The notes beneath the pieces were generated by a model that saw nothing but the letters and a program-made list of their open reading frames with translations, searched no databases and had not been told where the DNA came from. Source: Candidatus Hydrogenedens sp. (GTDB lineage: Bacteria > Hydrogenedentota > Hydrogenedentia > Hydrogenedentales > Hydrogenedentaceae). Taken from it: a stretch of 39,105 nucleotides of DNA. The DNA is taken from contig JBMFRC010000028.1 in assembly GCA_049968235.1 (NCBI GenBank), positions 1-39,105 of the forward strand, read 5' to 3'. Shown piece by piece: positions 984 to 37,805 of the stretch (position 1 is its first letter; the number at the start of each line of letters is the position of its first letter). The position numbers and the translations under genes were made by a program.

Positions 984-2717
984 ATGAGAACTGATTTTTT
1001 CAAAGGCTATGGAATTTTATTAATTATTTTATTCTGTTTTTTTTCAACAACTTCTTTTTCTCAGGAAATGCAAGCACTTATTGCATACTCAAATGGAACA
1101 ATAATTAAGTTGACAGAAGAAAATAAGAAATCCATATTTGGAGATGAAAGTTTACATCAAAAGGATTTATTTACTGCTAATGGTATTACATTTAATATGA
1201 CTTACCAAGATATTAATACAGGTTTTAATGACCCAACATTAGGTTCTCAAAGGAAAGCAGTATTACAAAGTGCTTTAGAGTATGTTTCAAGTGTATTAAA
1301 TACACCGGGAGGAAGGGTAGATATAAATGTATCCTCAGTTGTTTTAGCAGGGCAATACTTGGCGACTGCAGGTCCTATTGTTGTATGGTATTTACCTTTG
1401 ACTCCGGGAATCAATAATGGCTGTGTATTCCAACATTTATTAAATGGAAGTGTTGACCCGAGTGGACCAGATTATCCAGATATGCAATTAACTGTAAATT
1501 GGAATTATAACTACTATTTAGGGACAGGAGACCCGGGTCCAATGCAATTTGATTTATTGAGTATTCTTATTCATGAATTAACGCATGGGATTGGTTTTCT
1601 ATCGTCTATTGCATATAATGATTCAGTATGTGGTGGGGGGGCAAGACCTAATGGAACGGGTTGGACGGGTTCTCAACCAGATATTTATTCAGCATTTGAC
1701 ACTTTTCTGGTTACAGGAAATGGTAATTATTTTATAAATTCATCATTTTACTATACAGGTCAAAATAGTTATTTTCTCGGTGGTGATAATGGAGTATATT
1801 GTGCGGGTACGGAAGCAACGACTGTTTGGGGAACCAGACCGCGAATTTATGCACCATCTATTTTCGAGTGTGGAAGCAGTATCAGTCATTGGAATTCTTT
1901 AGGTGCCGTAATGGACCCAAGTATCCCGCCGGGAGTAAAGAAAAGAAACTATTTACCTTTTGAGGTTGCTTTTTTAAGGGATATGGGCTATGTAAATGCA
2001 AGTATTCCTTCAACGGAGGGAGAAGGAATGATTGAGGGAGAAGGAATTGCAGAAGGAGAAGGAGAACCTGCAGGATGTAATTATATAACAGATTGTCCGG
2101 ATTTTATTGAAGAGGGAAATCTGTTTTACACAGAATTATCAAATCGATTGGGAAATCCAACTATTAATTGGAACATTTCGGACCTGGATGGTTCTGGTAT
2201 TCCCGATTCATGGGAGGTAGCATTATTAAAGAAAATTTTATGTCAACCTGCTGTTTACTGGCGTTTAAATGCAACATGTGTATATCTGGAAAATTTATCA
2301 AAAATAAGAACAGAACCACAATATGAATTATGGTTACATCCTTATGAACATATTCTTGCAGGATTATTATCAATAAGTAGCGAGTTCCAATCTGTGTTTT
2401 CTATATTAAATCTCGTTAATGAATATCAGACGATAAAAAACGCTGAAAAAACGGTTAATGAAATTCTATCGGGTTGGGGTGATGCAGATAGAGATGGCTA
2501 TTCAAATCGGACAGAGTATAACAATTGCATTATCTTTGGTCTGGGACTAAATGATTACTTAATTGTAGCATTACATCCTGATTTAGATGGAACAGAAGCC
2601 CCGCAGGATGCTTTATCTGTTGGTCAAGGTATGAATATAGTGCTTTATTCTTTACCTATTCTAATTTTAGGTTTTATTTTACTATTAAGCCATCAATTAT
2701 CTTTATATCGCAAATAA
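984..2717 (+). CDS. Secreted HExxH-motif protein (putative zinc metallopeptidase) with Glu/Gly linker, thrombospondin-type-3-like Ca-binding Asp motifs and C-terminal hydrophobic anchor
   Basis: N-terminal signal peptide (MRTDFFKGYGILLIILFCFFSTTSFSQE); 'LLSILIHELTHGIGF' HExxH motif; 'EGEGMIEGEGIAEGEGEPAG' linker like the upstream gene; 'DLDGSGIPDSWE' and 'DADRDGYSNRTEY' DxDxDG-type motifs; C-terminal 'IVLYSLPILILGFILLLSHQLSLYRK' TM helix + basic tail. RBS aggag 972-976. Confidence 0.45.
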   Translation: MRTDFFKGYGILLIILFCFFSTTSFSQEMQALIAYSNGTIIKLTEENKKSIFGDESLHQKDLFTANGITFNMTYQDINTGFNDPTLGSQRKAVLQSALEYVSSVLNTPGGRVDINVSSVVLAGQYLATAGPIVVWYLPLTPGINNGCVFQHLLNGSVDPSGPDYPDMQLTVNWNYNYYLGTGDPGPMQFDLLSILIHELTHGIGFLSSIAYNDSVCGGGARPNGTGWTGSQPDIYSAFDTFLVTGNGNYFINSSFYYTGQNSYFLGGDNGVYCAGTEATTVWGTRPRIYAPSIFECGSSISHWNSLGAVMDPSIPPGVKKRNYLPFEVAFLRDMGYVNASIPSTEGEGMIEGEGIAEGEGEPAGCNYITDCPDFIEEGNLFYTELSNRLGNPTINWNISDLDGSGIPDSWEVALLKKILCQPAVYWRLNATCVYLENLSKIRTEPQYELWLHPYEHILAGLLSISSEFQSVFSILNLVNEYQTIKNAEKTVNEILSGWGDADRDGYSNRTEYNNCIIFGLGLNDYLIVALHPDLDGTEAPQDALSVGQGMNIVLYSLPILILGFILLLSHQLSLYRK

Positions 2718-2734
2718 AATATTTTAGAATCATA

Positions 2735-3850
2735 TTATTGCTTATAGTTATGTAAAATATTAAAAATTTCCTTAGCTGTGTTTTCCCATGTAAACAATTG
2801 TGCTCGTTTTTTGCCTTTAATAGATAATTGAGTTCTGAGAACCTCATCTGTTAAAACTTTATAAAGGTTTTGAGATATTTCTTTTATCTCATAAGGATTA
2901 ACAAGAATACCACTATCCGCTACAATTTCAGGGATAGATGAACAATTAGATGCAAGAACAGGTGTCTCACAGTTCATAGCCTCTATAATCGGTAGTCCAA
3001 AACCTTCCCATAGGGAAATAAGGACAAGTACCGTAGCAGAACTAATTAAAGCAACCTTTTCTTCTTCACTCTCAAGGTATCCCAAATAATGAATTTTATG
3101 TGCATATTTACTTTTTCTTATTTTGTTTAATATAGGTTCATATAACCAGCCTAAACTACCGACTATCACAAGGTGATGTAAAATTTCAGGATGGTTATCA
3201 CATAAATCTTCATATGCTTCAATGAGACGATTTATATTTTTTCTCGGCTGTATTCTACCCAAATAAAGAATATAAGGGTCATTAAGTCCATACTTTTCTC
3301 TTGTTTTATTTTGTTCCTCTTTAGATGCTTTTGTTACCTTATTACTCACTCCTAAATAAACTCTGTGTAGCCTACCTTCAATCTTTGGAAATCGTTCAAG
3401 TATAGACTGCCTTGAAGATTCACTAATAGTTATGAATAACTGATTTGTTTTTATTGCAAGATTTAATTCAAGTTTTGCTTTTAGTTGGGCTTTCCATGTA
3501 AACTCGCTGGGAAAATCATAGTATGCTATATCGAAAATTGTACATGATTTGGGACAATTTCCCCAGAAAGGTGTTTGAAGGGAAGGGGAATAAAAGATAT
3601 CCGGAGGGTTTGTGTTAAGTTCTTTGGGTAAAACTGTTTGTGTCCAAAATTTTTTCTTCTGTAAAATCTTAATTTCGATATTTTTACTTTCCTTTAATGG
3701 AAAAAAAGATTTCGGAGGAGAGTCCAGATATATTACTAATTTATCGTTATTTAATAAAGGAGCAATACCATTTAATAATTCATAACAAAATTGCCCACTA
3801 CCTACTTTGTGAATATCATTTGCCAATCTACCATCAAAACCGATAATCAT
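2735..3850 (-). CDS. Glycosyltransferase family 4 (GT-B, retaining) protein
   Basis: C-terminal 'ISLWEGFGLPIIEAMNCETPVLASNCSSIPEIV' is the GT4 E-x7-E sugar-donor motif region; typical ~370 aa length. Confidence 0.85.
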   Translation of the reverse strand: MIIGFDGRLANDIHKVGSGQFCYELLNGIAPLLNNDKLVIYLDSPPKSFFPLKESKNIEIKILQKKKFWTQTVLPKELNTNPPDIFYSPSLQTPFWGNCPKSCTIFDIAYYDFPSEFTWKAQLKAKLELNLAIKTNQLFITISESSRQSILERFPKIEGRLHRVYLGVSNKVTKASKEEQNKTREKYGLNDPYILYLGRIQPRKNINRLIEAYEDLCDNHPEILHHLVIVGSLGWLYEPILNKIRKSKYAHKIHYLGYLESEEEKVALISSATVLVLISLWEGFGLPIIEAMNCETPVLASNCSSIPEIVADSGILVNPYEIKEISQNLYKVLTDEVLRTQLSIKGKKRAQLFTWENTAKEIFNILHNYKQ

Positions 3851-4026: not shown

Positions 4027-6771
4027 ATGTTAAGTTGGCGAAAAGATTCTGAAATAGATAAAAAAAATGTTAACAAACCAAAAAGCCCGGTGGAAAAAGA
4101 AACCGGGACGAAGGGCAGAAATCAGGAAATCCAAGAGACACGAGGGGGGATGTCTCATAAAAGACTTGGGGATTTACTTCTTGAAGAGAAATTAATAACA
4201 TTAGAACAATTAGCAGAAGCGTTGAAAATTCAATCGGAAGAAGGTGGTTTTTTAGGGAGAATATTGGTAGAGAAGGGTTTCATAAAACAAGATGTTGTGT
4301 CTTCGTGTCTTGCTAAACAGTGTAAAATTCCTCATATTAATCTTGTAGAATATGATATTTCTCCAGAGGTTATACATCTTGTCCCGGAAGAAATTTGCAG
4401 GAGGAGATATTTACTCCCTATAGATAAATTAGGACGGATTTTGACTGTTGCTATGGTTGACCCTTTAGATACTGATGCTCTGGAGGAAGTACGGAATCAT
4501 TGCCCCGATTTAAGAATAAAACCAATACTATGTAGCTGGGATGATTTAAATCGGGCTTTTGATAAAGCATTTCGCAAGAGCAAACAAAGTGGAGATATGA
4601 TATCTGTTCTGACCTCAGATTCATTAGGTTTGAGAAAGGTAGAAACAGAAACATCAAAAGTAGAAAGCTCCGTTGAATCCGAACCTATTCTCCCTGCATC
4701 TATTCTGGAAGAAGTAGAAAAAACAGCCGAGAAGACAAAGGATATATTTCCTCATGAGACCCATATTCCTTCCCGTACTGAAGGAATGGGAGAAAAGACA
4801 ATACAAACTCCCATTGCTACTGAGGTAGTTGTTGATACATCCATTGTGCAGGCAATACATGAACTTCCCCGGATTCTCTCCGAGTCTATTCGCGAATCTC
4901 TCACACAGGTAAATATTAACATTCCGATGCCTCCACCGCCACCTACTCCAACTTCGTCTATTTCTGAAGAACGATTTTCAGAATTAATTCGGGAACTGAG
5001 TACTGTATATAAAGAATCCATTACTCAGGTGGCTCAAAATATATACTTAAAAATAAACGAAGATAGGGTAGAGGGACAAAACCAAATTGCAAGTGTTATT
5101 CAATCAAATATTGCAGGTGTTTTCCAGCAGGCTATTTTCACGATGGTAAGTCAATTGAAGGAAGAAATGTCTGTAAGAGAAAAGAACTTCCAGACAAATA
5201 CAGAACAGTTGGCACAGGTGATACGAAATGGTATAAGTGAGTTATCTAACCAGTTACTAAATTCAGTATCTAATGAAATTCAGAATTCAACTCGTTTTGT
5301 AGCACAAATTCCAGAAGAGGTGGCAAAAACTGTAGAAAAGGTCGTTGAAAAGATAGATAATACCGACCAAAAACTTTCATCACAGATGTCTATTGCAGAA
5401 AAAACGCAAGAAATTCTATTGACTGTAAAAGACTCTATTGTTAATGGACTTCAAACTACATTGGAGTCTGCAATAACCAAACTGGTAGAAGAGTTAAGGC
5501 AAGGAGAGGAAATAGGAGAACCTGACCCTGTTTTGTTAAATCTTACAGAAGCAATTAAAAAATTAGATGAAGCCATTCTTGAAAATCGTAAAGTACAGGA
5601 ATCACAGGTACAAAAATTTGCTCAGATTACAGAATCAGTTATCCAATCCGTTCAGCAGACAACAAACCAGGCAATTAAGGAAATTATTAAAGATAGAGAA
5701 CGGGAACATTTAGAAGTAAAAGAAGAAAAACCCAAAACCGACACCGTTATTCCTGAACTAAAAGAAGTTGTTGAACAATTAAAAGAATCTGTGCAAAAAA
5801 CACAAAAAATGCAAGATGTCCAGACAGAGAAGATAACCCGATTAACAGAAACAACACTGGAATCTGTGCAACAAACAGCCCAGTTGGTTGAAACTCTGAC
5901 TGTAATGGAGGGGAAACGGATAGAAACATTAGAAGAGAAAAAACGAAGGTTATCCGCAGTATCTCCGTTTGGGAATACTCATACAGTTCCACCAGAAGAA
6001 TTAGAGGAATCAGATAAAGAGGTTTGGAAAGCCCTTGAATCCGAACAACCTCTGGAAACACTTACTTTCGATAATTTTTTCCCCGGTTCTGTGAATGCAT
6101 TTACATTTAAATTGAGTAAAGCAGTAGCAGAAAATCCAGGGTCTGAATACAATCCCTATTTTCTATACGGCAATGTAGGTATCGGTAAAACGCATTTAAT
6201 TAGTGCTATTGGCAATGGCATACTTAAAAAACACCCCAAAAAAAGAGTGGGCTATGTATCTGCCAGTCATTTCTCAAGGAGGTTAGCAGAAGCGTTAAAA
6301 GAAGGAGCCTTAGACCTATTTCGTGAAAATTATTGTCATTGGGATGTGTTAATTCTTGATGATATTCAATTTTTAGGGGGAAAGGTAGATGCCCAGGAAG
6401 AATTTTTCCATGTATTTAATGTGCTTCATCAAAGTAAAAGACAAATTATTATTGCAAGTGATAAAGCTCCTGACCGTTTAGGTATGTTAGAACAAAGACT
6501 GGTGTCCCGCTTTTCCAGTGGTATCGTAGCGGAACTAAAATCGCCCGAATGGGAAACGCGAATGCAAATATTGCGAAATCAAATCAAAGAAGCAGGGGTT
6601 CAAGTCCCAGAAGAGGTATTGAGTTTAATTGCAATGCGGGTCCCCAATGATGTGCGTAAAATGATGGGTTCATTAAAAAAGATTATTGCCTTTGCAAAAT
6701 TGGTCGGACAAAGTATTACCTGTGAGATGGCAGATGAAATATTAAGTCATTTAGGAGTTGTAGCAGCGTAA
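4027..6771 (+). CDS. Fusion protein: N-terminal MshE-N/GspE-N (T2SSE_N, c-di-GMP-binding type) domain - ~450-aa Glu/Gln/Lys-rich coiled-coil/low-complexity linker with poly-Pro - C-terminal DnaA domain-III AAA+ ATPase module lacking DnaA domains I/II and the DNA-binding domain IV
   Basis: Residues ~42-180: two tandem 24-aa MshEN-type motifs 'RLGDLLLEEKLITLEQLAEALKIQ' and 'FLGRILVEKGFIKQDVVSSCLAKQ', then 'IPHINLVEYDISPEVIHLVPEEICRRRYLLPI...LTVAMVDPLDTDALEEV' (GspE_N fold signature). Residues ~680-914 (nt 6061-6771) match DnaA domain III: 'LTFDNFFPGSVN', 'YNPYFLYGNVGIGKTHLISAIGNGI' (Walker A), 'DVLILDDIQFLGGKVDAQEEFFHVFNVL' (Walker B/box), 'QIIIASDKAP...EQRLVSRFSSGIVAELKSPEWETRMQIL' (sensor I / Arg finger), 'NDVRKMMGSL' (sensor II). 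ORF ends about 20 aa later, with no HTH domain IV. RBS aaggat 4015-4020; alternative start ATG 4150 directly before the MshEN motif. Confidence 0.8.
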   Translation: MLSWRKDSEIDKKNVNKPKSPVEKETGTKGRNQEIQETRGGMSHKRLGDLLLEEKLITLEQLAEALKIQSEEGGFLGRILVEKGFIKQDVVSSCLAKQCKIPHINLVEYDISPEVIHLVPEEICRRRYLLPIDKLGRILTVAMVDPLDTDALEEVRNHCPDLRIKPILCSWDDLNRAFDKAFRKSKQSGDMISVLTSDSLGLRKVETETSKVESSVESEPILPASILEEVEKTAEKTKDIFPHETHIPSRTEGMGEKTIQTPIATEVVVDTSIVQAIHELPRILSESIRESLTQVNINIPMPPPPPTPTSSISEERFSELIRELSTVYKESITQVAQNIYLKINEDRVEGQNQIASVIQSNIAGVFQQAIFTMVSQLKEEMSVREKNFQTNTEQLAQVIRNGISELSNQLLNSVSNEIQNSTRFVAQIPEEVAKTVEKVVEKIDNTDQKLSSQMSIAEKTQEILLTVKDSIVNGLQTTLESAITKLVEELRQGEEIGEPDPVLLNLTEAIKKLDEAILENRKVQESQVQKFAQITESVIQSVQQTTNQAIKEIIKDREREHLEVKEEKPKTDTVIPELKEVVEQLKESVQKTQKMQDVQTEKITRLTETTLESVQQTAQLVETLTVMEGKRIETLEEKKRRLSAVSPFGNTHTVPPEELEESDKEVWKALESEQPLETLTFDNFFPGSVNAFTFKLSKAVAENPGSEYNPYFLYGNVGIGKTHLISAIGNGILKKHPKKRVGYVSASHFSRRLAEALKEGALDLFRENYCHWDVLILDDIQFLGGKVDAQEEFFHVFNVLHQSKRQIIIASDKAPDRLGMLEQRLVSRFSSGIVAELKSPEWETRMQILRNQIKEAGVQVPEEVLSLIAMRVPNDVRKMMGSLKKIIAFAKLVGQSITCEMADEILSHLGVVAA

Positions 6772-6851
6772 ATCCAAAGAAATATATGTGTTATAGGTTT
6801 CGTTATAATATATTATAAAAATTAAATTATAGTTGCAAATATTTTAGGAGA

Positions 6852-8579
6852 TTGAATGTGAGAATAGCTAAAAAACGATTACCCGAGATGCTTCTCGATT
6901 TAGGAGTTATTAACAAAGAAAAATTAAATGAATGTATAAAAATTCAACAGCAGACAGGTAAAAATCTTCAAGATATATTACTTGAAAAGAAGTATATATC
7001 AGAGGAAGAACTGGTGGAAACACTCAGCGAACAACTTCAAATTCCTCATATCCGTGTATCAAATTATGCAATCCCCAAAGAAGTACTTGCTGAAGTTCCC
7101 GAAGGACTTGCAAAACAATATCAAGTATTACCTATCTCTATAACAGGTGATATTTTAACACTTGCCATGGCAAATCCATTAAATATCCTTGCTTTAGATG
7201 ATATTCGAATGATAACAGGTAAGGAAATTGAGCCTGTGATTGCTATGCCCTCAGAACTTCGTGATGTGATAGAGAAAAACTATAGTGGTGATAGGGCATC
7301 GGAGATATATGCTTCTTTATTAGCAGAACATTCGCAACAAGATGAAGTTGAAGAATTTAAGACTTCATCCGAAGAAGTTGAGGATGTAAGTAAAATTGAA
7401 TCCGTAGAAGAAGATGAACCTGTAAAAAAAATGGCGCGTCTGATTGTTCTGGATGCTCTAGAAAGAGGAGCGTCAGACATACATATTGAGCCATTTGAAA
7501 AAATTATTCGCATTCGCTATCGTGTAGACGGTGCCCTCGAGGAAGCAAAATCACCTCCTAAGTCTATGCAATCAAATCTTATTGCTCGCTTTAAAATTTT
7601 ATCGGGTTGTAGAATTGATGAACATCGTCTCCCACAAGATGGTCGTTTCCGCATAAAATTTCGAGGTAGAGAGATAGATTTCCGTGTAGCATTTCTTCCT
7701 TGTAAATATGGCGAAAAGATAGTATTGCGTGTACTTGATAAGAGCAATTTGGTGTTGAATCTTGAAGATATGGGTTTTGAGCCTCAGCCTCTGGAAGCAT
7801 TATACCATGCGTTGAAATTACCCCATGGCATGATACTTTTAACGGGACCAACAGGAAGTGGTAAAACCACAACACTATACAGTTGCTTAACCCGCCTGAA
7901 TACAATAGAAACAAATATAGTAACTGTAGAAGACCCTATCGAGTATGAATTGTTTGGAATTAATCAGGTGCAGGTGCAATCCCGTATTGGATTTACATTT
8001 GCAGAAGCATTACGCCAAATTTTGCGTCAGGACCCTAATATTATAATGGTCGGGGAAATCCGTGATGGAGAGACAGCAGATATAGCAGTGAAAGCAGCAT
8101 TGACCGGGCACCTTGTGTTAAGCACATTACACACAAACGACGCCGCAGGTGTATTTCCTCGATTAATAGATATGGGTATAGAGCCATTCCTTGTCCAATC
8201 CTCTGTGGCTCTCGCAGCAGCACAACGATTATTAAAACGAGTTTGTAAAGAATGTAAAGAAAATATATCTGTAGATAGAAATGTGTTAGAACGTATTCAA
8301 TTTCATGGATTCCCCCACATTCCTAATCCTCAATTTGTCCGGGGCAGAGGTTGTCCAAAATGTAAGGACTCGGGATATAAAGGACGGATTGCCTGTCTGG
8401 AAGCCATGTTAAATTGGCCTGAATTGCATCCACTGGTTTTGAACCGTGCATCAGGTTATGAAATTAAGAAACAAGCAATTGCATGTGGAATGAAAACACT
8501 GCGACAAAATGCACTTGCCCTTGCTGCACGAAGTTTTACAACGATTGAACAGGTTCTTGAGCATACTATTGCTGATTAA
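6852..8579 (+). CDS. Type II secretion / type IV pilus assembly ATPase of the GspE/PilB/MshE family, with N-terminal MshEN-type domain
   Basis: TTG start with RBS aggag 6846-6850. N-term 'RLPEMLLDLGVINKEKLNECIKIQ' + 'LQDILLEKKYISEEELVETLSEQ' (MshEN-like tandem motifs) and 'IPHIRVSNYAIPKEVLAEVPEGLAKQYQVLPI'; Walker A 'LLTGPTGSGKTTTLYSCL'; Asp/His boxes 'IIMVGEIRDGETADIAVKAALTGHLVLSTLHTND'; tetracysteine Zn motif 'CKECKE...GRGCPKCKDSGYKGR'. Confidence 0.9.
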   Translation: MNVRIAKKRLPEMLLDLGVINKEKLNECIKIQQQTGKNLQDILLEKKYISEEELVETLSEQLQIPHIRVSNYAIPKEVLAEVPEGLAKQYQVLPISITGDILTLAMANPLNILALDDIRMITGKEIEPVIAMPSELRDVIEKNYSGDRASEIYASLLAEHSQQDEVEEFKTSSEEVEDVSKIESVEEDEPVKKMARLIVLDALERGASDIHIEPFEKIIRIRYRVDGALEEAKSPPKSMQSNLIARFKILSGCRIDEHRLPQDGRFRIKFRGREIDFRVAFLPCKYGEKIVLRVLDKSNLVLNLEDMGFEPQPLEALYHALKLPHGMILLTGPTGSGKTTTLYSCLTRLNTIETNIVTVEDPIEYELFGINQVQVQSRIGFTFAEALRQILRQDPNIIMVGEIRDGETADIAVKAALTGHLVLSTLHTNDAAGVFPRLIDMGIEPFLVQSSVALAAAQRLLKRVCKECKENISVDRNVLERIQFHGFPHIPNPQFVRGRGCPKCKDSGYKGRIACLEAMLNWPELHPLVLNRASGYEIKKQAIACGMKTLRQNALALAARSFTTIEQVLEHTIAD

Positions 8580-8611: not shown

Positions 8612-9538
8612 ATGAAAAGAGGAAATCAAAAAAAAAGGAAAGTAGTGAATAGTTTTTTATTTATTTCCTTACTTTTATTTCTAGCTTCATGTGAAGGAAT
8701 CTACACAATACAGGGAAAAGTTTTTGCCATTAATGGAGAGCCTCTCCCCGGTGTATGTGTTTCCAGTCCCGAAATATTTAGCCATGTAATAACAAATGCA
8801 AAAGGGAGCTTTGTTTTTCGTTTTTCAAAACCCATTAGCAAGTTAGAGTTTATAAAATCAGATTATCTTCCGTTTACCATTTCCCTTCATTTCTCCGAAA
8901 AAAAATACATTACTCTAACGGATATATTTCTTACCCCCAAACCTTCATCTCCCGGTGTTTATTTCCTTGATAAAGAAAAAAATAGATATTTACCCTTAAT
9001 AAAAGGGAAAATAGAGAGAACCCAATTCCAAAAGCGAAATTCTGTTCCTTCTATAAAATTAAGTGAGATAGTACACATTAGAGATACTTTCCCACAACTT
9101 TATGTTTTTCGTTTACCACAATATGATATAACCTTGTATCAGATGAAAGAATATACTACCGGAGCAGACGAAACAAAACCTGACAAAAATTCAGATAAAA
9201 AGGAAAAACAGTCTGCTGAGAAAGATACGGAAGTATCTAAGGAAAGAAAAATATGGATTCCCGATAAACCTATTTTAACTTATGCTGAGTTCCTTTCAGA
9301 ACAGGATACAAGTTTGTTCCTATTTAAGCCTGTAAGTGAATTAAAACCCGGTGTCTATTGTGTAAATTGGCGAGCTTTTGAGGTACCTTTCCCGCGGATG
9401 AGCGAATGCTTTTTATTCTCTGTTGAAGAAGAACAAAAAGCGGAAGAATCTTCTGCAAAAACTCCTTTATCCGATACAAAAAAAGAGGACGAAAATAAAA
9501 AAACAGGGGATGGTAAAGTAGGTAAAAACAAATTGTAG
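8612..9538 (+). CDS. Lipoprotein of unknown function with N-terminal carboxypeptidase-regulatory-like beta-sandwich and Lys/Glu-rich C-terminal tail
   Basis: Signal peptide + lipobox 'LLFLASCEG'; 'GKVFAINGEPLPGVCVSS...TNAKGSFVFRF' resembles CarboxypepD_reg-like domains; C-terminal KKEDENKKTGDGKVGKNKL. Confidence 0.5.
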   Translation: MKRGNQKKRKVVNSFLFISLLLFLASCEGIYTIQGKVFAINGEPLPGVCVSSPEIFSHVITNAKGSFVFRFSKPISKLEFIKSDYLPFTISLHFSEKKYITLTDIFLTPKPSSPGVYFLDKEKNRYLPLIKGKIERTQFQKRNSVPSIKLSEIVHIRDTFPQLYVFRLPQYDITLYQMKEYTTGADETKPDKNSDKKEKQSAEKDTEVSKERKIWIPDKPILTYAEFLSEQDTSLFLFKPVSELKPGVYCVNWRAFEVPFPRMSECFLFSVEEEQKAEESSAKTPLSDTKKEDENKKTGDGKVGKNKL

Positions 9539-10841: not shown

Positions 10842-11939
10842 TTATGGATTATCTACCCATGATAGCCATTCAACTTTTCCCTGTGCGTCAATCATAAATT
10901 TCCTTGCCCTTAAATTCGATGAAGGACCTTCTTCATAATAGACGATAAGTATACTATCATCTTTTAATGTTACCATAGAAGGGTATGCCCCTATGCACGG
11001 GTCAACTAATATTGGTTCGTTCCATGAAACAGCATCATCTGTACTTATACTTATACAGGTTCCCTTGTGAGGTGAACGAATACCCATTAATAAAACTCCT
11101 GATGGTGCACGATATAAATAAGGAGAATGCCCCGGGAAAGGGAGTGCTTTACTGATGCTCCATGTTTTGCCCCCATCAGTAGATAATGAAAATCCCATAG
11201 GTAAGTCGCTATGTCCCCGTTGTGCAATAAATAGATTCTGATTCTTCAATATACATATATCCGGTTCCGCATCAAGTTTTAATGTCCCATAATCAATGTC
11301 AATAGGAGTAGACCATGTGATTCCTTTATCTTTCGAAAGAGATACTGCACCACAACCTCCTTTTCGTTCATCGGCATATAGACTAATGATTAATATACCA
11401 TCTGAAAGTGTTCGTATCGGAGAACTACAGTAATACTCAGAAAAAATTTGTTGAGGTTCCGACCATGTTTTTCCCCAATCTTCAGAAGAAATTATCCATG
11501 TTCCCAAGCCTTCCCATTGCTTGTCCTGATTTTTAATGGGTTTTAAAGAAAAGAAATTACAAATCAACTTTTTATTGTCAATCACTGCGATAGATGGGTC
11601 ACGGTCATCATAAGGACTATCATAAACAACAAAGGGCTTTCCCCATGTTTTCCCTTCATCTTCCGAAAATATTCCAGAAATTCGTCCTCCTTTAGGGTAT
11701 GTATCATTCGGCAATGATACATGGGCATAGCCATCATAAAAAACACAGAGTAATCTTCCATCAGGTAGTCTGCATATATCAGGGAAAGCCTCATAAGCAC
11801 CTCTACCACCATCTTTACATATAACAAGGTAGTCTTTTCCCTCTTGCAGGGGTAAGGATTGCCCCTCTGCATAAGCACAAACAGATAGAAGATACAACAG
11901 GAATATCCATTGCCAAAATATAAACTGTAGTCGTTTCAT
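10842..11939 (-). CDS. Secreted BNR/Asp-box repeat glycoside hydrolase (GH33 sialidase-like beta-propeller)
   Basis: Signal peptide; five Asp-box repeats 'SEDEGKTWGKP', 'SEDWGKTWSEP', 'SKDKGITWSTP', 'STDGGKTWSIS', 'STDDAVSWNEP' (S-x-D-x-G-x-T-W). Confidence 0.7.
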   Translation of the reverse strand: MKRLQFIFWQWIFLLYLLSVCAYAEGQSLPLQEGKDYLVICKDGGRGAYEAFPDICRLPDGRLLCVFYDGYAHVSLPNDTYPKGGRISGIFSEDEGKTWGKPFVVYDSPYDDRDPSIAVIDNKKLICNFFSLKPIKNQDKQWEGLGTWIISSEDWGKTWSEPQQIFSEYYCSSPIRTLSDGILIISLYADERKGGCGAVSLSKDKGITWSTPIDIDYGTLKLDAEPDICILKNQNLFIAQRGHSDLPMGFSLSTDGGKTWSISKALPFPGHSPYLYRAPSGVLLMGIRSPHKGTCISISTDDAVSWNEPILVDPCIGAYPSMVTLKDDSILIVYYEEGPSSNLRARKFMIDAQGKVEWLSWVDNP

Positions 11940-15948: not shown

Positions 15949-16893
15949 ATGAAACGAACTGGTTTTACACTCATCGAATTATTAGTTGTGATTGCCATTA
16001 TTGGTATCCTTGCTGCGATTTTACTTCCGGCATTGGCTCGCGCTCGTGAGGCGGCTCGCCGTTCTTCTTGTGCTAATAATTTAAAACAATGGGGACTCGT
16101 TTTTAAAATGTATGCCAACGAATCTCCCGGAGGAAAATTTCCACCCAGCGAATTAGAATTAGGCTGTGGTGCCCGTCCTTGTATGGCATTCGGTCCGTTA
16201 ATTAGTGTCATATATCCGGAATATCTTACAGACCCGGCGATAATCTTTTGTCCTTCCGATGCAAAAGATAGATTAGAAAACTTTATTGACCCTCAAACAA
16301 AAGAATTTACCATGTTACAAAAGATAGATGGAAATCGTCAGCAGGGTGTAGAAGGAATTGATGCAAGTTATACTTATGCCAATTTCGTATTTGACCGCTG
16401 TGGAGATGAATATGGCACAAAATCTACAGCAGCATTGCAAGCATTGGCTACTATAATTGGGAATCCTCTTGACCCATCAATTACGGAAGGCGCAGCTCAG
16501 TTTATTGAAGTAGTAGAAGATATGATTGATAAATTGAGACCTTATTTCCTTTCAAATGATGCAAATGGATTCAGGCGGGAGGCTGATAATGATAGACAGG
16601 TTTCGGATGGATTAGGTAATGGCGGAGGGAAAATTGTTTATCGCTTGAGAGAAGGTATAGAACGATTTTTGATTACAGATATTAATAATCCTGCTGCAAG
16701 TGCGAAGGCACAAAGTTCTATTTTTGTCATGTGGGATAATGTATCTGACCAGGTAGCAAAATTTAACCATATTCCCGGTGGTAGCAATATTCTGTATATG
16801 GATGGGCATGTATCCTTTGTTCGCTTTCCAGGTGAACCGCCCATGGTTGCTGAACTTGCTGCAATCATGCGAGTTTTCGATATTGCAGAATAG
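15949..16893 (+). CDS. Prepilin-type N-terminal cleavage/methylation-domain protein with DUF1559 (H-X9-DG) C-terminal domain (pseudopilin-like, Planctomycetota-type)
   Basis: ATG 15949 with RBS aaaggag 15934-15940. '[47 protein letters not shown]' is the class III signal/N-methylation motif + helix; C-terminal '[12 protein letters not shown]' is the DUF1559 signature. The listed ORF 15496-16893 is an artefactual upstream extension. Confidence 0.85.
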
Positions 16894-20183: not shown

Positions 20184-20657
20184 TTGATAATTTATCAATC
20201 AGAATATCATGTTACTCTGGATGATAAGAACAGAATATTAGTTCCTTCATCCCTAAAATCTATTATGTCCGATAATAACCATACAGTCTGGTATCTGACT
20301 CGCGGGTTTGAAAATAATCTTTTATTATTCCCCTCGCAGATTTGGAAAGAAATAACTGATAAATTAGAGCAATTGCCCACATTAAATCCGAAAGTACAAA
20401 TTCTTCGGCGCCGTTTTATCGGTGGTTCTGTTCAGGTTAGACCCGACGGGCAATATCGCATAACATTGCCAGCACCATTTCGGAACTGGGCAGAGATTAT
20501 GGATAATGCTGTGATAGCAGGCTGTGGTATGTATCTTGAAATATGGAATGAAAAGTTATGGGACAATTTCTTTAAAAACACTGATATTCAAACAGATATG
20601 AAAATTTTTATGGAGGAATTATTTCCACTAACGAATATAAATCAAAACCTATCATAA
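20184..20657 (+). CDS. mraZ: Transcriptional regulator MraZ
   Basis: TTG start, RBS ggag 20173-20176. Two tandem MraZ/SpoVT-AbrB repeats, 'YHVTLDDKNRILVPSSLK' and 'YRITLPAPFRNWAEI' (DxxxR motif in each half); first gene of the dcw cluster. Confidence 0.85.
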   Translation: MIIYQSEYHVTLDDKNRILVPSSLKSIMSDNNHTVWYLTRGFENNLLLFPSQIWKEITDKLEQLPTLNPKVQILRRRFIGGSVQVRPDGQYRITLPAPFRNWAEIMDNAVIAGCGMYLEIWNEKLWDNFFKNTDIQTDMKIFMEELFPLTNINQNLS

Positions 20658-20666
20658 TAGGAGCAA

Positions 20667-21017
20667 GTGGCTATGGACATGGAAAAACTTAATTATGGGC
20701 ATGTAATCCTCTTCAGAATTTCTGGCAGTCTTGATGAGGAAAATGTATGTAATTTGCGACTTGCCATCGCTGATTACATCAAAGGCAGAAAAAGTTGTGT
20801 GGTCTTGAATCTACAAGATGTAGAGATGATGGACCAGGTTTCCGCGGGATATTTGTTAGAATGTCTGCAAATGGCGAGGAGAAAAGGGGGAGACCTAAAA
20901 TTGGTCAAACCGAGCACCTTCATCGAACAACTATTCCGTTTTTTGGGTATATGGCATTATTTTGAAATATATACAACCGAAACAAGTGCCGTTAACGCAT
21001 TCAAACTAGCCGCATAA
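20667..21017 (+). CDS. STAS-domain anti-sigma-factor antagonist (SpoIIAA/RsbV-like)
   Basis: 116 aa; 'HVILFRISGSLDEENVCNLRLAIADYI...CVVLNLQDVEMMDQVSAGYLLECLQMARRKGGDLKLV' matches the STAS fold and the phosphorylatable-Ser region. RBS aggag 20650-20655. Inserted between mraZ and rsmH. Confidence 0.7.
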   Translation: MAMDMEKLNYGHVILFRISGSLDEENVCNLRLAIADYIKGRKSCVVLNLQDVEMMDQVSAGYLLECLQMARRKGGDLKLVKPSTFIEQLFRFLGIWHYFEIYTTETSAVNAFKLAA

Positions 21018-21024
21018 AAGAAAT

Positions 21025-21066
21025 AACTTTTCCAGTAAACAAATTTGCTGGAAAAGTTTTAATTTA
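21025..21066 (+). terminator. Intra-operon hairpin (possible attenuator / partial terminator) between the STAS gene and rsmH
   Basis: 11-bp stem aacttttccag (21025-21035) / ctggaaaagtt (21048-21058), 12-nt loop with internal palindrome caaatttg, followed by ttaatttatt. AT-rich stem, so probably weak. Confidence 0.45.
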
Positions 21067-21081
21067 TTATGTCAATAATTT

Positions 21082-22050
21082 ATGACCAATGAAAAACATC
21101 ATATTCCTGTAATGGCAAATGAGGTAATAAACCTCTTTCAAGAGAGAGAGAAGGGTATTTTTGTTGATGCAACAATAGGTGCTGGTGGACATACTTCTTA
21201 TATTCTCGAATATCTCTCCCCCCGTATGGTTGTGGGGATAGATAGGGACCCCAAAGCCATACAGATATGTTCAAAAAAATTTGAGAAAGAAAAACGAGTA
21301 AAAATATATCACGCAAATTACGCCGATATGGATAAAGTAATAAACATATTAGGTATCCAGGAGGTAGATGGAATTTTAATTGATGCAGGACTTTCCAGTT
21401 TTGCTTTAGATGATGAAGAACGTGGATTTTCTTTTCAGAAAGACGGGCCTCTGGATATGCGTATGAATACAGATGAGAAAGAAACTTTAGGAGATTTCTT
21501 AGACCGGACGGATGAACATACGCTCGCAAAAATTCTAAAAGAATACGGGGATGTTGTAAAGCCTTATTCTATTGCAAAAAAAATTATTATGCGTAGAAGG
21601 GAAGGAAAAATTAGAAAAGTTTCGGATATAGTACAAACGGTATTAGAAGATTTTCATTATGTTAATCATATTCCAGATGAAGTTCGTCAGGTATTTCAAG
21701 CATTAAGAATTGCCGTTAATAATGAATTATTTTTTTTAAGAAAAGGTCTATGGGCAGGATTGAAAATATTGGCAATACATGGACGATTTATCGTAATTAG
21801 TTTTCATTCAGGTGAAGACAGAATTGTCAAATCTATGTTTCGTTTCGTATCGCAACCATTACGGATTTTATCTCCAGAAGGTATTTTAAGAGAACAAATA
21901 TCTCCCATAGCGAGGAATTTAACACCGAAACCCGTCGCTCCTTCATCTGAGGAGATAAAAATAAATTCCAGAGCAAAAAGTGCAAGACTAAGAGCCATTG
22001 AAAAAATTTCAGATACATATATTCAACATTATATTTCAAAAGGGGTATAA
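21082..22050 (+). CDS. rsmH: 16S rRNA (cytosine1402-N4)-methyltransferase RsmH (MraW)
   Basis: 'HIPVMANEVINLF...GIFVDATIGAGGHTSYILE...GIDRDPKAI...DGILIDAGLSSFALDD' are RsmH SAM-MTase motifs. Confidence 0.9.
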   Translation: MTNEKHHIPVMANEVINLFQEREKGIFVDATIGAGGHTSYILEYLSPRMVVGIDRDPKAIQICSKKFEKEKRVKIYHANYADMDKVINILGIQEVDGILIDAGLSSFALDDEERGFSFQKDGPLDMRMNTDEKETLGDFLDRTDEHTLAKILKEYGDVVKPYSIAKKIIMRRREGKIRKVSDIVQTVLEDFHYVNHIPDEVRQVFQALRIAVNNELFFLRKGLWAGLKILAIHGRFIVISFHSGEDRIVKSMFRFVSQPLRILSPEGILREQISPIARNLTPKPVAPSSEEIKINSRAKSARLRAIEKISDTYIQHYISKGV

Positions 22051-22054
22051 AAGA

Positions 22055-22954
22055 ATGAGTAAAAAAGTTATACAAATACGAAAAGATGCCCTGTTCATAA
22101 GTTCCTTATATCTAATCCCGGTGTTTATTGTATCTGGAGTACTGGCTGTGGATTTATATATTAATGTCCAACGCTGGCATTATGATTATTTAACTATACA
22201 GGCAAAAAAGAATATTACACGATGGGTTAAAGATAAAAGTGAATTTAAAAAGCATGATAAATTAAAGGGAATAAGTAAGGATAGTAAAGGTGAACCTTCA
22301 ATAGAGCCTATAGATAATAAAGAAACAAAAGATATAAGGTCCATTTCTTTTTTTTCAAAGATACTCGACAAAATAGTTTTCTTTAGAGAAACCGAAGAGG
22401 AAAATCAAACTCAAGAAGAAGGACAAAATGTGCAAAAAGTAGAAGACATTAACTATGGACTCCAGGCGATGATGGCTGAAATAGAGATGTTGAAAGTTGA
22501 AAAGGTAAGATTAGAAAACTTGCAAAATTTGACAAGATTGGGATTTCAATTAGGTTTGGTGACTCCAAAACCAGAACAGGTAGTACGAATTACATATAGT
22601 AAAGATGAACGGGATAAATTAATACAAACTGCATCATCAGATATGTTATTTCCCCAAAAGCCTAAAAAGATAAATACCTCAGAAACGAAATATGCAGAAG
22701 GTGAAACAGATATTAAACAAAAAATAAAGAGAATAAAGGACTTGTTGAACAAACCTGCAATTTCTATTAAGGAATGGGTTATCAATAAAATTACAACTCC
22801 CGTAATTGCAGAATCAAAAAATAGTGTTAACGAGGAAACAAATGAAAGCAATGTGCCCAAAATGAATAAAGATGAAAAGAATTTACATCCTGATAAAAAT
22901 AATGATGATATAGATATCGATTCATTAACAGAGTTCTTGATGGAGAAACTATAG
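22055..22954 (+). CDS. FtsL-like bitopic cell-division protein with unusually long Lys/Glu-rich coiled-coil C-terminal extension
   Basis: Position between rsmH and ftsI; ATG 22055 (MSKKVIQIRKD) with RBS aaagggg about 22040. Single TM 'ALFISSLYLIPVFIVSGVLAVDLYI' followed by coiled-coil 'LQAMMAEIEMLKVEKVRLENLQNL'. 299 aa versus ~100-120 for typical FtsL. The listed ORF start 21998 overlaps the rsmH 3' end. Confidence 0.55.
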   Translation: MSKKVIQIRKDALFISSLYLIPVFIVSGVLAVDLYINVQRWHYDYLTIQAKKNITRWVKDKSEFKKHDKLKGISKDSKGEPSIEPIDNKETKDIRSISFFSKILDKIVFFRETEEENQTQEEGQNVQKVEDINYGLQAMMAEIEMLKVEKVRLENLQNLTRLGFQLGLVTPKPEQVVRITYSKDERDKLIQTASSDMLFPQKPKKINTSETKYAEGETDIKQKIKRIKDLLNKPAISIKEWVINKITTPVIAESKNSVNEETNESNVPKMNKDEKNLHPDKNNDDIDIDSLTEFLMEKL

Positions 22955-22965
22955 GGGATAATACA

Positions 22966-25359: not shown

Positions 25360-25362
25360 AGA

Positions 25363-28200: not shown

Positions 28201-28255
28201 ATATGATTTTTATATAATTTTACATTTTTATAAAGAAGAACAAATAGAGGTATAG

Positions 28256-31119: not shown

Positions 31120-31122
31120 AGA

Positions 31123-37702: not shown

Positions 37703-37805
37703 ATTCTATCATTCTTTATTAATGATGGGTTGACTATTTGTTCACAATGAGAATAGTTTATTAAAATAGTTTCACTTTTTATAATTTAATTAGAAGATAA
37801 TAATA

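What the first reader, a model, noticed from the sequence alone, without database searches (positions are those of the whole stretch)
6852..8579. Orphan PilB/GspE/MshE-family assembly ATPase with no pilus or secretion partner genes in 39 kb
The ATPase has every hallmark of a T2SS/T4P extension ATPase (Walker A, Asp/His boxes, C4 zinc motif). No PilC/GspF platform, PilM/N/O/Q, secretin, prepilin peptidase or major pilin is nearby. The flanks are the DnaA-like fusion and a lipoprotein, then scpA. The only prepilin-type gene in the window (DUF1559, 15949) is 7 kb away under its own GntR-linked promoter. The motor may serve a dispersed T2SS-like system, or act mainly as a c-di-GMP receptor together with the upstream fusion.
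Basis: inference. Interest (0 to 1): 0.5.

Follow-up and report, generated by a model that had tools for sequence, protein, structure and literature searches.

The report
Pilus motor paired with DnaA-like partner
The gene is a genuine, strongly conserved type IV pilus assembly motor (PilB) whose lack of neighbouring pilus genes is normal for its phylum. Its one constant neighbour is an apparently undescribed protein that joins a PilB-like c-di-GMP-sensor domain to the ATPase domain of the replication initiator DnaA.

Summary
Observation confirmed. Window 6858-8579 (+) encodes a complete 573-aa PilB/GspE-family ATPase with all catalytic motifs. The likely start is GTG 6858, not TTG 6852. No PilC, PilM/N, secretin, prepilin peptidase or further pilin was found in the 39 kb by Pfam or tblastn.

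"Orphan" is the ordinary part. In Hydrogenedentota, the window's phylum, PilB has no PilC/secretin/PilMN/PilD within 10 kb in 39 of 40 loci; the exception is one lone PilC/GspF in L114. By contrast 54 of 78 PilB loci from other phyla have PilC nearby. The protein is T4aP-type: its best solved relatives are Geobacter and Myxococcus PilB. In all other Hydrogenedentota lineages it is followed by pilT, pilS-like and pilR-like genes, which this lineage lacks at that position. Within the lineage dN/dS is 0.02-0.05.

The notable part is the upstream gene (4027-6771): MshEN, a long helical linker and DnaA domain III, with no DNA-binding domain. It sits directly upstream of pilB in 40 of 40 Hydrogenedentota-type loci and 0 of 78 other-phylum loci. 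Divergent versions flank PilB or PilT in five further contigs. PilB's own c-di-GMP motif has Pro or Gln where the ligand-contacting Gly should be, while the partner keeps Gly. I infer that the partner, not PilB, senses c-di-GMP. Genome-wide presence of pilC/pilQ/pilD in this lineage could not be tested.

The parts
6858..8579 (+). pilB: 573-aa type IV pilus extension ATPase. It comprises an MshEN/GSPII N-domain, linker, N2 domain and a C-terminal ATPase with Walker A/B, Asp and His boxes and a C4 zinc site. An alternative TTG start lies at 6852.
   Evidence: Pfam T2SSE 431 bits and MshEN 77 bits. Geobacter/Myxococcus PilB 504-520 bits over the full length. TIGR02538 620 bits. Motif coordinates. 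The exact 573-aa product is on record. dN/dS is 0.02-0.05.
6876..7034 (+). PilB MshEN_N four-helix region. Motif I is RLPEMLLDLGVINKEKLNECIKIQ (6876-6947), followed by a 5-residue spacer and motif II NLQDILLEKKYISEEELVETLSEQ (6963-7034). Both lack Gly at motif position 3.
   Evidence: Motif definition and the role of Gly3 come from PMC5013675 and PMC11731258. The NF053729 domain model still passes (48 bits, cutoff 38).
4027..6771 (+). Conserved upstream partner, 914 aa. It has an MshEN domain (aa 45-183, canonical RLG / FLG motifs at aa 46-69 and 75-98), a disordered and long-helical linker (aa ~184-650), and a DnaA domain III AAA+ (aa ~675-909) with Walker A/B, sensor I, box VII arginines and sensor II. 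There is no DnaA domain I or IV.
   Evidence: Pfam Bac_DnaA 190 bits and MshEN 62 bits. B. subtilis DnaA domain III 206 bits against Hda 46 bits. TIGR00362 scores 301, below its cutoff of 343.9. AF2 domain confidence. Invariant columns. Adjacent to pilB in 40/40 loci.
6772..6857 (+). 86-bp gap between the partner gene and pilB (6772-6857), with the pilB ribosome-binding site AGGAG at 6846-6850. No terminator-like hairpin lies on the + strand, so co-transcription is inferred.
8612..9538 (+). Lipoprotein (lipobox LASC) 32 bp downstream of pilB. It occupies this position only in the window's own lineage, where other lineages have pilT.
   Evidence: Sequence. Homologs follow pilB only in L001, L002, L009, L089 and L091. 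No NCBIfam hit and only a weak CarboxypepD_reg-like Pfam hit.
15949..16893 (+). The only prepilin-type gene in the window (DUF1559/HX9DG family, N-terminal GFTLIE). It is divergent from a GntR regulator and is not part of the pilB unit.
   Evidence: Conserved at the same place in L002.

Best explanation
The gene encodes the type IVa pilus extension ATPase PilB of a Candidatus Hydrogenedens-like bacterium. Established knowledge of the family describes a hexameric motor that docks on the inner-membrane platform (PilC/PilM) and uses ATP to drive pilin polymerisation. Its platform, alignment, secretin, peptidase and pilin genes are encoded elsewhere in the genome. This is inferred: it is the phylum's usual layout.

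The motor is co-transcribed with, and functionally coupled to, the upstream 914-aa protein. That protein copies PilB's N-terminal MshEN domain and carries a DnaA-type AAA+ module at the end of a long helical linker.

My proposed mechanism is inference. The partner is the c-di-GMP-sensing subunit of the pair. Its PilB-like N-domain takes it to the same docking sites as PilB, or to PilB itself. Its ATP-dependent DnaA-type oligomerisation module then gates or localises motor activity. PilB's own MshEN has lost the ligand-contacting glycines and serves mainly as a docking domain.

Sub-claim probabilities:
- PilB-type T4P motor: 0.85
- Functional coupling with the partner: 0.7
- c-di-GMP input sitting on the partner rather than on PilB: 0.35
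For: Identity:
- Full-length matches to solved T4aP PilB structures at 504-520 bits, against 363 for GspE.
- The best NCBIfam model is PilB, and all catalytic motifs are present.
- Orthologs are 67-95% identical across the phylum.
- dN/dS is 0.02-0.05 within the window lineage.

Context:
- Orthologs in other Hydrogenedentota are followed by PilT (TIGR01420 473 bits), a PilS-like kinase with the 6TM_PilS domain, and a sigma54 PilR-like regulator.
- PilT follows PilB in 16 metagenome loci and 5 distinct genome loci.

Dispersal is the norm:
- One lone PilC/GspF and no secretin, PilMN or PilD in 40 Hydrogenedentota loci, against PilC in 54 of 78 other-phylum loci.
- The lone T2SSF gene in L114 shows that such genes exist singly in the phylum.

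Coupling:
- The DnaA-like AAA+ lies directly upstream of pilB in 10/10 loci found from PilB and 0/78 other-phylum loci.
- PilB lies directly downstream in 30/30 loci found from the fusion that have downstream sequence.
- True dnaA-type loci retrieved in the same scan lack this arrangement.
- Divergent family members sit beside PilB or PilT in L129, L169/L170, L171, L172 and L173.
- The gap is 86 bp with no + strand terminator.

Sensor argument:
- PilB orthologs have Pro at motif I position 3 in 87 of 99. Motif II reads S/N-L-P/Q/A.
- The fusion family keeps R-L-G (G in 98 of ~111) and F/Y-L-G (G in 96) with a 5-residue spacer.
- The backbone NH of Gly3 binds guanine O6/N7 (PMC11731258).
- A hydrophobic residue at motif II position 1 gives nanomolar binding in PilF GSPII-B (PMC11731258).
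Against: - The window lineage lacks pilT-pilS-pilR next to pilB. I could not show that pilT, pilC, pilQ, pilD or a major pilin exist anywhere in its genome. The top 120 Hydrogenedentota PilT hits share no contig length with window-lineage contigs.
- PilB scores below NCBI's equivalog cutoff (620 against 675.65). Per residue, the GspE model is about as good.
- The NF053729 c-di-GMP-motif model still passes for PilB (48 bits against a cutoff of 38), so loss of binding is not shown.
- No experiment or structure links the two proteins physically. Co-transcription is inferred from spacing only, and promoter-like hits are at chance level.
- The Verrucomicrobia accessory (TPR+MshEN) has no c-di-GMP motif either. 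An upstream MshEN protein therefore does not always mean an outsourced sensor.
Confidence: 0.72

Rival explanations
1. It is a T2SS-type GspE that powers secretion through pseudopilins such as the many DUF1559/HX9DG prepilin-like proteins of this phylum, rather than a pilus motor.
For: TIGR02533 GspE scores 559 bits, and per aligned residue it is as good as the PilB model. A DUF1559 prepilin-type gene lies 7 kb away. No PilT is nearby in this lineage.
Against: - Solved PilB proteins score 504-520 bits against 363 for GspE.
- Orthologs are linked to pilT, pilS and pilR.
- The closest other-phylum relatives are pilB-pilT-pilC loci, while loci with a GspD-type secretin and pseudopilin sets are only 39-40% identical.
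- A separate 508-aa T2SSE paralog exists in a relative (L006) and could serve the T2SS.
- The GspE score is below its cutoff of 630.
Confidence: 0.08
2. In this lineage PilB no longer builds pili. After loss of the adjacent pilT-pilSR genes, it survives as a signalling ATPase that works only with the DnaA-like partner. This would resemble M. xanthus PilB, which also regulates exopolysaccharide.
For: The window lineage has a lipoprotein and scpA where relatives have pilT-pilS-pilR. No window-lineage PilT was seen among the top PilT hits. A signalling role for PilB is known (PMC5544727). The partner and PilB are both retained under purifying selection.
Against: All motor motifs, including the zinc site and arginine fingers, are intact. 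dN/dS is as low as expected for a working enzyme. Dispersal of pilus genes is normal in the phylum. Absence of PilT from a top-120 list is not evidence of absence.
Confidence: 0.1
3. The adjacency to the DnaA-like gene has no functional meaning. PilB is an ordinary stand-alone gene, and the neighbour is an Hda-like replication regulator that happens to sit there.
For: NCBI names the neighbour a DnaA/Hda family protein. scpA, a chromosome-segregation gene, lies just downstream in this lineage.
Against: - The pair is adjacent in 40/40 loci whose other flanks differ completely.
- The neighbour carries a PilB-type N-domain.
- Divergent relatives again sit in T4P clusters, after PilD and before PilB or PilT.
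- Hda models score far below cutoff: 102.6 against 194.8.
- scpA linkage is confined to the window lineage.
Confidence: 0.05

Closest known systems
T4aP assembly ATPase PilB of Geobacter metallireducens/sulfurreducens and Myxococcus xanthus (PDB 5TSG, 5ZFR, 3JC8)
   Same: The architecture is the same over the full length: MshEN/GSPII N-domain, N2 domain, and a C-terminal ATPase with Walker A/B, Asp and His boxes and a tetracysteine site. Scores are 504-520 bits. Orthologs share the pilB-pilT...pilS-pilR neighbourhood.
   Different: No pilC or pilA lies in the cluster. In the window lineage pilT-pilSR are absent from the locus. Both c-di-GMP motifs lack Gly3 (RLP; NLQ or SLP), whereas Geobacter and Myxococcus PilB have RLG or RIG. 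A DnaA-like partner gene always lies upstream.
Vibrio cholerae MshE and the MshEN c-di-GMP receptor domain (PDB 5HTL; PMC5013675)
   Same: The N-terminal fold is the same and the two 24-residue motifs are in register with a 5-residue spacer. The NF053729 domain model passes.
   Different: PilB fails even the relaxed published motif at position 3 in both halves and at position 10 in motif II. The upstream partner fits much better. MshE belongs to an msh operon with its platform and pilins, and this gene does not.
Thermus thermophilus PilF with three GSPII domains (PDB 6F8L, 8PFA; PMC11731258)
   Same: It is a precedent for a T4P motor that carries both binding and non-binding GSPII/MshEN copies. 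GSPII-A, with a degenerate motif II, does not bind. GSPII-B, with Leu at motif II position 1, binds at 6 nM.
   Different: In PilF the extra domains lie in one polypeptide. Here the canonical copy lies on a separate protein and is fused to a DnaA-type AAA+ module.
Xanthomonas citri PilB-PilZ-FimX regulatory complex (PDB 7LKM-7LKO; PMC8389850)
   Same: It is a precedent for c-di-GMP reaching PilB through separate proteins that dock on the PilB N-terminal domain.
   Different: The components are unrelated (PilZ and a degenerate GGDEF-EAL protein). No PilZ or FimX gene lies in the window.
DnaA domain III and Hda (for the partner protein)
   Same: The AAA+ module aligns to DnaA domain III over ~230 residues at 206 bits. 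Walker A/B, sensor I, box VII arginines and sensor II are conserved.
   Different: There is no domain I and no DNA-binding domain IV. Scores are below the DnaA and Hda equivalog cutoffs. The module forms its own clade apart from true DnaA. It is fused to MshEN and encoded in T4P loci.

Membership tests
Type IVa pilus assembly ATPase PilB | Curated equivalog model TIGR02538 at or above its cutoff | tested here: not met
   620 bits against a cutoff of 675.65. It is the top-scoring model and aligns over 2-562 of 564 positions.
Type IVa pilus assembly ATPase PilB | Secretion-ATPase catalytic set: Walker A, Asp box, Walker B, His box, arginine fingers, C4 zinc site | tested here: met
   All present and aligned to Geobacter PilB.
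Type IVa pilus assembly ATPase PilB | Closer to characterised PilB than to GspE, MshE, PilT or ComGA | tested here: met
   PDB scores are PilB 504-520 bits, PilF 471, GspE 363 and PilT about 116. NCBIfam scores are PilB 620, GspE 559 and ComGA 242.
Type IVa pilus assembly ATPase PilB | Genomic association with other T4aP genes (pilT, pilC, pilMNOPQ, pilSR, pilA) | tested here: inconclusive
   None in the window. Orthologs at 58-73% identity are followed by pilT-pilS-pilR. pilC/pilMNOPQ/pilD are absent from 39 of 40 phylum loci; L114 has one lone PilC/GspF.
Type IVa pilus assembly ATPase PilB | Platform, secretin, peptidase and pilin present in the same genome | not testable with these tools
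   The window is a whole 39,105-bp contig. The PilT search was uninformative for this lineage.
Type II secretion ATPase GspE | Curated equivalog model TIGR02533 at or above its cutoff, with a gsp operon context | tested here: not met
   559 bits against a cutoff of 630.25. No gspD, gspF or gspG-K genes are nearby.
MshEN c-di-GMP-binding domain | Domain model NF053729 (53-residue c-di-GMP motif) at or above its cutoff | tested here: met
   PilB scores 48.1 bits and the partner 59.5 bits, with a cutoff of 38.
MshEN c-di-GMP-binding domain | [quoted passage not shown] The relaxed published form is [RKPN]hGxxhhxx[GAS]hh....h...h..[QNKRYWST] (PMC5013675). | tested here: not met
   PilB motif I has Pro at position 3. 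Motif II has Gln at position 3 and Lys at position 10. The Pro is phylum-wide, in 87 of 99 orthologs. The partner fails only at motif I position 10 (Lys in this protein, Gly in many relatives) and motif II position 1 (Phe).
MshEN c-di-GMP-binding domain | Measured c-di-GMP binding | not testable with these tools
   Needs ITC or DRaCALA on the two N-domains.
DnaA / Hda (partner protein 4027-6771) | Equivalog models TIGR00362 (DnaA) or TIGR03420 (Hda) at or above cutoff, plus DnaA domain IV for DnaA | tested here: not met
   DnaA scores 301.1 against a cutoff of 343.9. Hda scores 102.6 against 194.8. There is no Bac_DnaA_C hit and the protein ends about 5 residues after the AAA+ lid.

The most novel reading that the evidence does not exclude
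The MshEN-linker-DnaA-domain-III proteins may form an undescribed class of type IV pilus accessory ATPases. They would use a DnaA-type module either to talk to the replication initiator DnaA or oriC, or to handle single-stranded DNA taken up through the pilus. The first role would couple c-di-GMP, surface contact and pilus activity to the start of chromosome replication. That would be a direct, hard-wired version of the pilus-to-cell-cycle link known in Caulobacter (PMC7196804). In this reading, PilB in this phylum is one half of a two-ATPase device rather than a stand-alone motor.
Probability: 0.12. Interest if true: 0.85.

Novelty: new variant of a known kind. Interest (0 to 1): 0.5.

Why it matters
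Taken alone, the ATPase is one more PilB, and its isolation from other pilus genes is the normal layout in its phylum, so that part of the finding is ordinary.

What matters is the invariant two-gene module. A pilus motor whose own c-di-GMP site looks degenerate is paired with a protein that keeps the canonical site and ends in a replication-initiator-type AAA+ domain. The partner family is large: at least about 80 further clusters at 50% identity share the architecture. It recurs in several architectures inside T4P clusters of divergent lineages. I found no description of it in the literature searched.

If the coupling is real, it adds a new regulator class to type IV pilus biology. It also offers a testable route by which second-messenger or surface signals could reach either the pilus motor or the replication machinery in a little-studied, uncultured phylum.

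Tried and rejected
- Genome scan seeded with the window PilB. The peptide patterns were too window-specific, and only two Hydrogenedentota-type loci came back. The other 78 loci were used as an outgroup instead.
- Search for PilT in the window lineage through a Hydrogenedentota PilT query. The top 120 hits (81-99% identity) share contig lengths only with non-window lineages, so whether this lineage has PilT is unresolved.
- Look-up of the exact fusion protein. No gene position is on record, so the rest of the source MAG could not be reached.
- Pilin after pilR in relatives. The gene there is a conserved lipoprotein, not a pilin, and no prepilin motif occurs in 16 loci.
- The window's downstream lipoprotein as a pilus part. 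It is lineage-specific, has no family hit, and is unrelated to the post-pilR lipoprotein.
- Defence-system reading. PADLOC gives only trivial hits.
- Promoter and terminator scan. Counts are at chance level, so it was used only to note that no + strand hairpin lies between the genes.
- Common origin of the L129-type and Hydrogenedentota fusions. In a neighbour-joining tree the L129 AAA+ domains fall outside the Hydrogenedentota clade, so a single or multiple origin is left open.
- 'Outsourced sensor' as a general rule. The Verrucomicrobia TPR+MshEN accessory has no c-di-GMP motif, so the rule does not generalise.
- Rfam and tRNA scans of the window found nothing.
- Literature searches for MshEN with DnaA, DnaA-like with PilB, and Hydrogenedentes with PilB or pili found no relevant paper.
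Full report
**1. What is at 6852-8579**

The ORF is real. It translates to a PilB/GspE-family ATPase, with Pfam T2SSE at 431 bits and MshEN at 77 bits.

An AGGAG lies 7 nt before GTG 6858. The 573-aa product from that start is exactly the protein recorded in an NCBI assembly. I therefore place the gene at 6858-8579.

All motor motifs are present:
- Walker A, aa 330-337
- Asp box, aa 357-364
- Walker B, aa 394-403
- His box, aa 417-429
- Two CxxC pairs, aa 463-466 and 499-502
- RLPQDGR arginines, aa 257-263

They align residue for residue with Geobacter PilB.

The source is a low-GC (about 35%) Candidatus Hydrogenedens-like genome. The upstream protein is recorded on a 39,105-bp contig, which is the window's own length, so the window is a whole contig.

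**2. Is it without partners?**

Yes, within the window. Pfam scans of the 30 largest ORFs and NCBIfam scans of two further ORFs show none of the expected partners. What they do show is:
- a PASTA protein, a glycosyltransferase and the MshEN-DnaA fusion;
- PilB, a lipoprotein, ScpA and a UPF0102 protein;
- sugar-metabolism genes and a GntR regulator;
- one DUF1559 prepilin-type protein;
- a dcw cell-wall cluster (20184-32259);
- queuosine biosynthesis genes and Fe-S proteins.

There is no T2SSF, secretin, PilM/N/O or prepilin peptidase.

I took 54 PilC sequences, plus secretin, PilMN, PilD, pilin and PilX sequences, from PilB loci of other phyla. tblastn of these against the window hits nothing except PilB itself. 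Only one prepilin cleavage motif exists in six frames, at 15961.

Minus-strand genes at 2735-3850 and 10842-11939 bound any transcript. Syntenic relatives that reach further left show no pilus genes.

**3. What kind of ATPase is it?**

It is T4aP PilB-type.
- Solved PilB proteins of Geobacter and Myxococcus score 504-520 bits over the full length. GspE scores 363.
- The best NCBIfam model is PilB, at 620 bits against 559 for GspE. Both are below the strict equivalog cutoffs.
- Orthologs at 67-95% identity occur throughout Hydrogenedentota.
- Outside the window's own lineage they are followed by three genes: a PilT (TIGR01420, 473 bits), a PAS/HisKA kinase that in some loci carries the 6TM_PilS domain, and a sigma54-type response regulator.
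- The nearest relatives from other phyla (46-49% identity) are pilB-pilT-pilC loci of Gemmatimonadota and Riflebacteria, plus Verrucomicrobia PilB loci. Loci with GspD-type secretins and pseudopilin sets are only 39-40% identical.

**4. 'Orphan' is the phylum's norm**

| Gene found within 10 kb of pilB | Hydrogenedentota-type loci (n=40) | Other-phylum PilB loci (n=78) |
|---|---|---|
| PilC/T2SSF | 1 (lone gene in L114) | 54 |
| PilT | see below | 35 |
| Secretin | 0 | 15 |
| PilMN | 0 | 13 |
| PilD | 0 | 10 |

The lone T2SSF gene in L114 lies 2.3 kb from the pair, among unrelated genes. This shows that such genes occur singly in the phylum.

The window lineage comprises the window plus L001, L002, L009, L089 and L091, with PilB 81-100% identical. 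It differs only in having a lineage-specific lipoprotein and scpA where the others have pilT-pilS-pilR.

Within this lineage PilB evolves under strong purifying selection: dN/dS is 0.02-0.05 at dS of 0.5 to above 2. It is therefore a working gene.

Whether pilT, pilC, pilQ, pilD and a pilin exist elsewhere in this lineage's genome could not be tested.

**5. The constant neighbour**

The gene at 4027-6771 encodes a 914-aa protein with three parts.
- A PilB-like N-terminus. MshEN scores 62 bits, and the region aligns to PilB residues about 20-250 and to MshE.
- A variable middle. AlphaFold models it as about 90 disordered residues followed by about 370 residues of long helices, at low confidence.
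- A C-terminal DnaA domain III. It scores 206 bits to B. subtilis DnaA domain III against 46 to Hda. Walker A/B, sensor I, both box VII arginines and sensor II are invariant in the family.

It has no DnaA domain I or IV, and it fails the DnaA and Hda equivalog cutoffs.

Adjacency counts:

| Set of loci | Result |
|---|---|
| Hydrogenedentota-type loci found starting from PilB | DnaA-type AAA+ directly upstream in 10/10 |
| Other-phylum PilB loci | 0/78 |
| Loci found starting from the fusion (metagenome scan, 34 fusion-type loci), with downstream sequence | PilB or its N-terminus starts 40-200 bp downstream in 30/30 |
| Same scan, contig ends too soon | 4 loci, not assessable |
| True dnaA-type hits from the same scan | arrangement absent |

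Further points:
- The other flanks differ completely between lineages.
- The window's 86-bp gap has no + strand terminator.
- The fusion's dN/dS is 0.07-0.08.
- Its AAA+ domains form one clade apart from true DnaA.

**6. The family is large and recurs in pilus clusters elsewhere**

An exhaustive HMMER search of 1.84 billion cluster representatives returned 150 top hits. At least 81 of the 138 new ones share the order MshEN motif pair, then N1 subdomain, then a DnaA Walker A about 200 residues from the C-terminus. Lengths run from 450 to 1,250 aa.

Contexts of divergent members:

| Locus | Gene order |
|---|---|
| L129 | pilin, PilD, MshEN-DnaA (984 aa), MshEN-only (436 aa), MshEN-DnaA (418 aa), MshEN-DnaA-DnaA (1,987 aa), TonB_C protein, PilB, unknown, PilT |
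| L173 | same layout as L129, in another contig |
| L169/L170 | compact ~450-aa fusion, PilB 10-20 bp downstream |
| L172 | compact ~450-aa fusion, PilB 10-20 bp downstream |
| L171 | two tandem fusions followed by a PilT-like ATPase |

L129 also carries a T9SS sorting-domain protein.

Five literature searches found no description of such proteins or of pili in this phylum.

**7. Where is the c-di-GMP site?**

[quoted passage not shown] The backbone NH of the Gly at position 3 hydrogen-bonds guanine O6/N7 (PMC11731258).

| Protein | Motif I | Motif II |
|---|---|---|
| Window PilB | RLP... | NLQ... with Lys at position 10 |
| Hydrogenedentota PilB orthologs | Pro at position 3 in 87 of 99 | S/N-L-P/Q/A |
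| Most PilB loci of other phyla where both motifs are detectable | RLG | RLG or KLG |
| Partner family | R-L-G (Gly in 98 of ~111) | F/Y-L-G (Gly in 96) |

The partner keeps the 5-residue spacer. A hydrophobic first residue in motif II is what gives T. thermophilus PilF GSPII-B its 6 nM affinity, whereas the degenerate GSPII-A does not bind (PMC11731258).

NCBI's 53-residue domain model still passes for both proteins, at 48 and 59.5 bits against a cutoff of 38. Loss of binding by PilB is therefore an inference, not a result.

PilB proteins next to the divergent fusions show the same trend in motif II: SLP in L129, PLA in L169 and TLP in L173.

**8. Most likely mechanism**

Shown:
- A complete, conserved PilB-type motor.
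- A conserved, co-directional, closely spaced partner gene with a PilB-type N-domain and an intact DnaA-type AAA+.
- Pilus genes dispersed in the phylum.

Inferred:
- PilB powers a T4a pilus built from genes elsewhere in the genome.
- The partner is co-transcribed with pilB, senses c-di-GMP through its canonical MshEN site, and reaches the motor or its docking sites through the PilB-like N-domain.
- The partner uses ATP-dependent oligomerisation of the DnaA-type module to gate or localise the motor.

What the DnaA-type module binds is unknown. Candidates are itself, DnaA, ssDNA or something else.

**9. Rivals**

| Reading | Probability | Main objection |
|---|---|---|
| T2SS GspE serving DUF1559 pseudopilins | about 0.08 | similarity and orthologs' contexts point to T4aP |
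| Signalling-only PilB that lost pilus function in this lineage | about 0.1 | intact motifs and very low dN/dS |
| Chance adjacency to an Hda-like gene | about 0.05 | 40/40 adjacency and recurrence in other T4P clusters |

**10. Verdict**

The 'orphan' aspect is ordinary for this phylum. The ATPase is a new member of the PilB family.

The invariant pairing with an MshEN-DnaA-III protein, together with the apparent shift of the canonical c-di-GMP site onto that partner, makes the unit a new variant of a known kind of system. It is worth experimental follow-up.

Noticed in passing
L011:9024-9983 and the equivalent genes in L013-L017, L021, L024, L025: Verrucomicrobia PilB loci carry a ~320-aa TPR + MshEN (C-subdomain only) protein directly upstream of PilB and have no PilC or PilT within 10 kb. 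Their PilB motif I reads R-I-A and motif II is not detectable. This is a second kind of MshEN-bearing accessory in front of an 'orphan' PilB.
   Followed up: partly
L129:3408-21954 and L173:1738-17238: These are T4P clusters with several MshEN proteins between PilD and PilB: four in L129 (three with DnaA domain III); in L173 three MshEN proteins plus a separate DnaA-III-only protein. One giant of ~1,900-2,000 aa has two DnaA domains. A TonB_C protein lies just before PilB in L129. L129 also encodes a T9SS sorting-domain protein.
   Followed up: partly
L131:5513-10834: A 1,774-aa protein combines a CHC2 (DnaG-type) zinc ribbon, many TPR repeats and a C-terminal DnaA domain III without domain IV. 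This is another way of fusing the DnaA AAA+ module to an adaptor region.
   Followed up: no
Representative proteins P0451, P0456, P0466, P0480, P0490, P0497, P0498: These proteins of ~430-660 aa have two DnaA-type Walker A sites about 250-370 residues apart and no MshEN motif. They look like tandem DnaA-domain-III proteins.
   Followed up: no
window 8612-9538: A lipoprotein (lipobox LASC, Lys/Glu-rich tail) lies 32 bp after pilB. It is present at this position only in the window's own lineage, and a distant homolog sits 6 kb upstream of the pair in L119. It matches no family.
   Followed up: partly
L003:16247-16816, L093:19027-19515, L114:18750-19418: A conserved ~190-220-aa lipoprotein with an acidic tail follows the pilR-like gene in three of the Hydrogenedentota pilB-pilT-pilS-pilR loci, at the position where Geobacter and Myxococcus have pilA. 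It has no prepilin motif.
   Followed up: partly
L091:6881-8599: The PilB reading frame ends after 460 aa (protein P0018), although similarity continues to the normal end. This is an in-frame stop or an assembly error in that metagenome contig.
   Followed up: no
L009, L010 and protein P0119: The records are titled Nitrospirales/Nitrospiraceae. Yet L009 is syntenic with the window and its PilB is 87% identical to the window's. These are probably taxonomic mislabels of Hydrogenedentota bins.
   Followed up: no
window 37703-39105: The last 1.4 kb has no ORF above 63 aa, no tRNA and no Rfam match.
   Followed up: partly
window 984-2717: A 577-aa protein has no Pfam hit and only a sub-threshold match to the NF038122 metalloprotease family. 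It is conserved at the same place in L002.
   Followed up: no
L132, L145, L152, L159, L160: In one group of true dnaA loci, a PilB/GspE-like ATPase (38-45% identical to the window's) lies about 8-9 kb downstream of dnaA on the opposite strand. This is probably lineage synteny near the origin.
   Followed up: no
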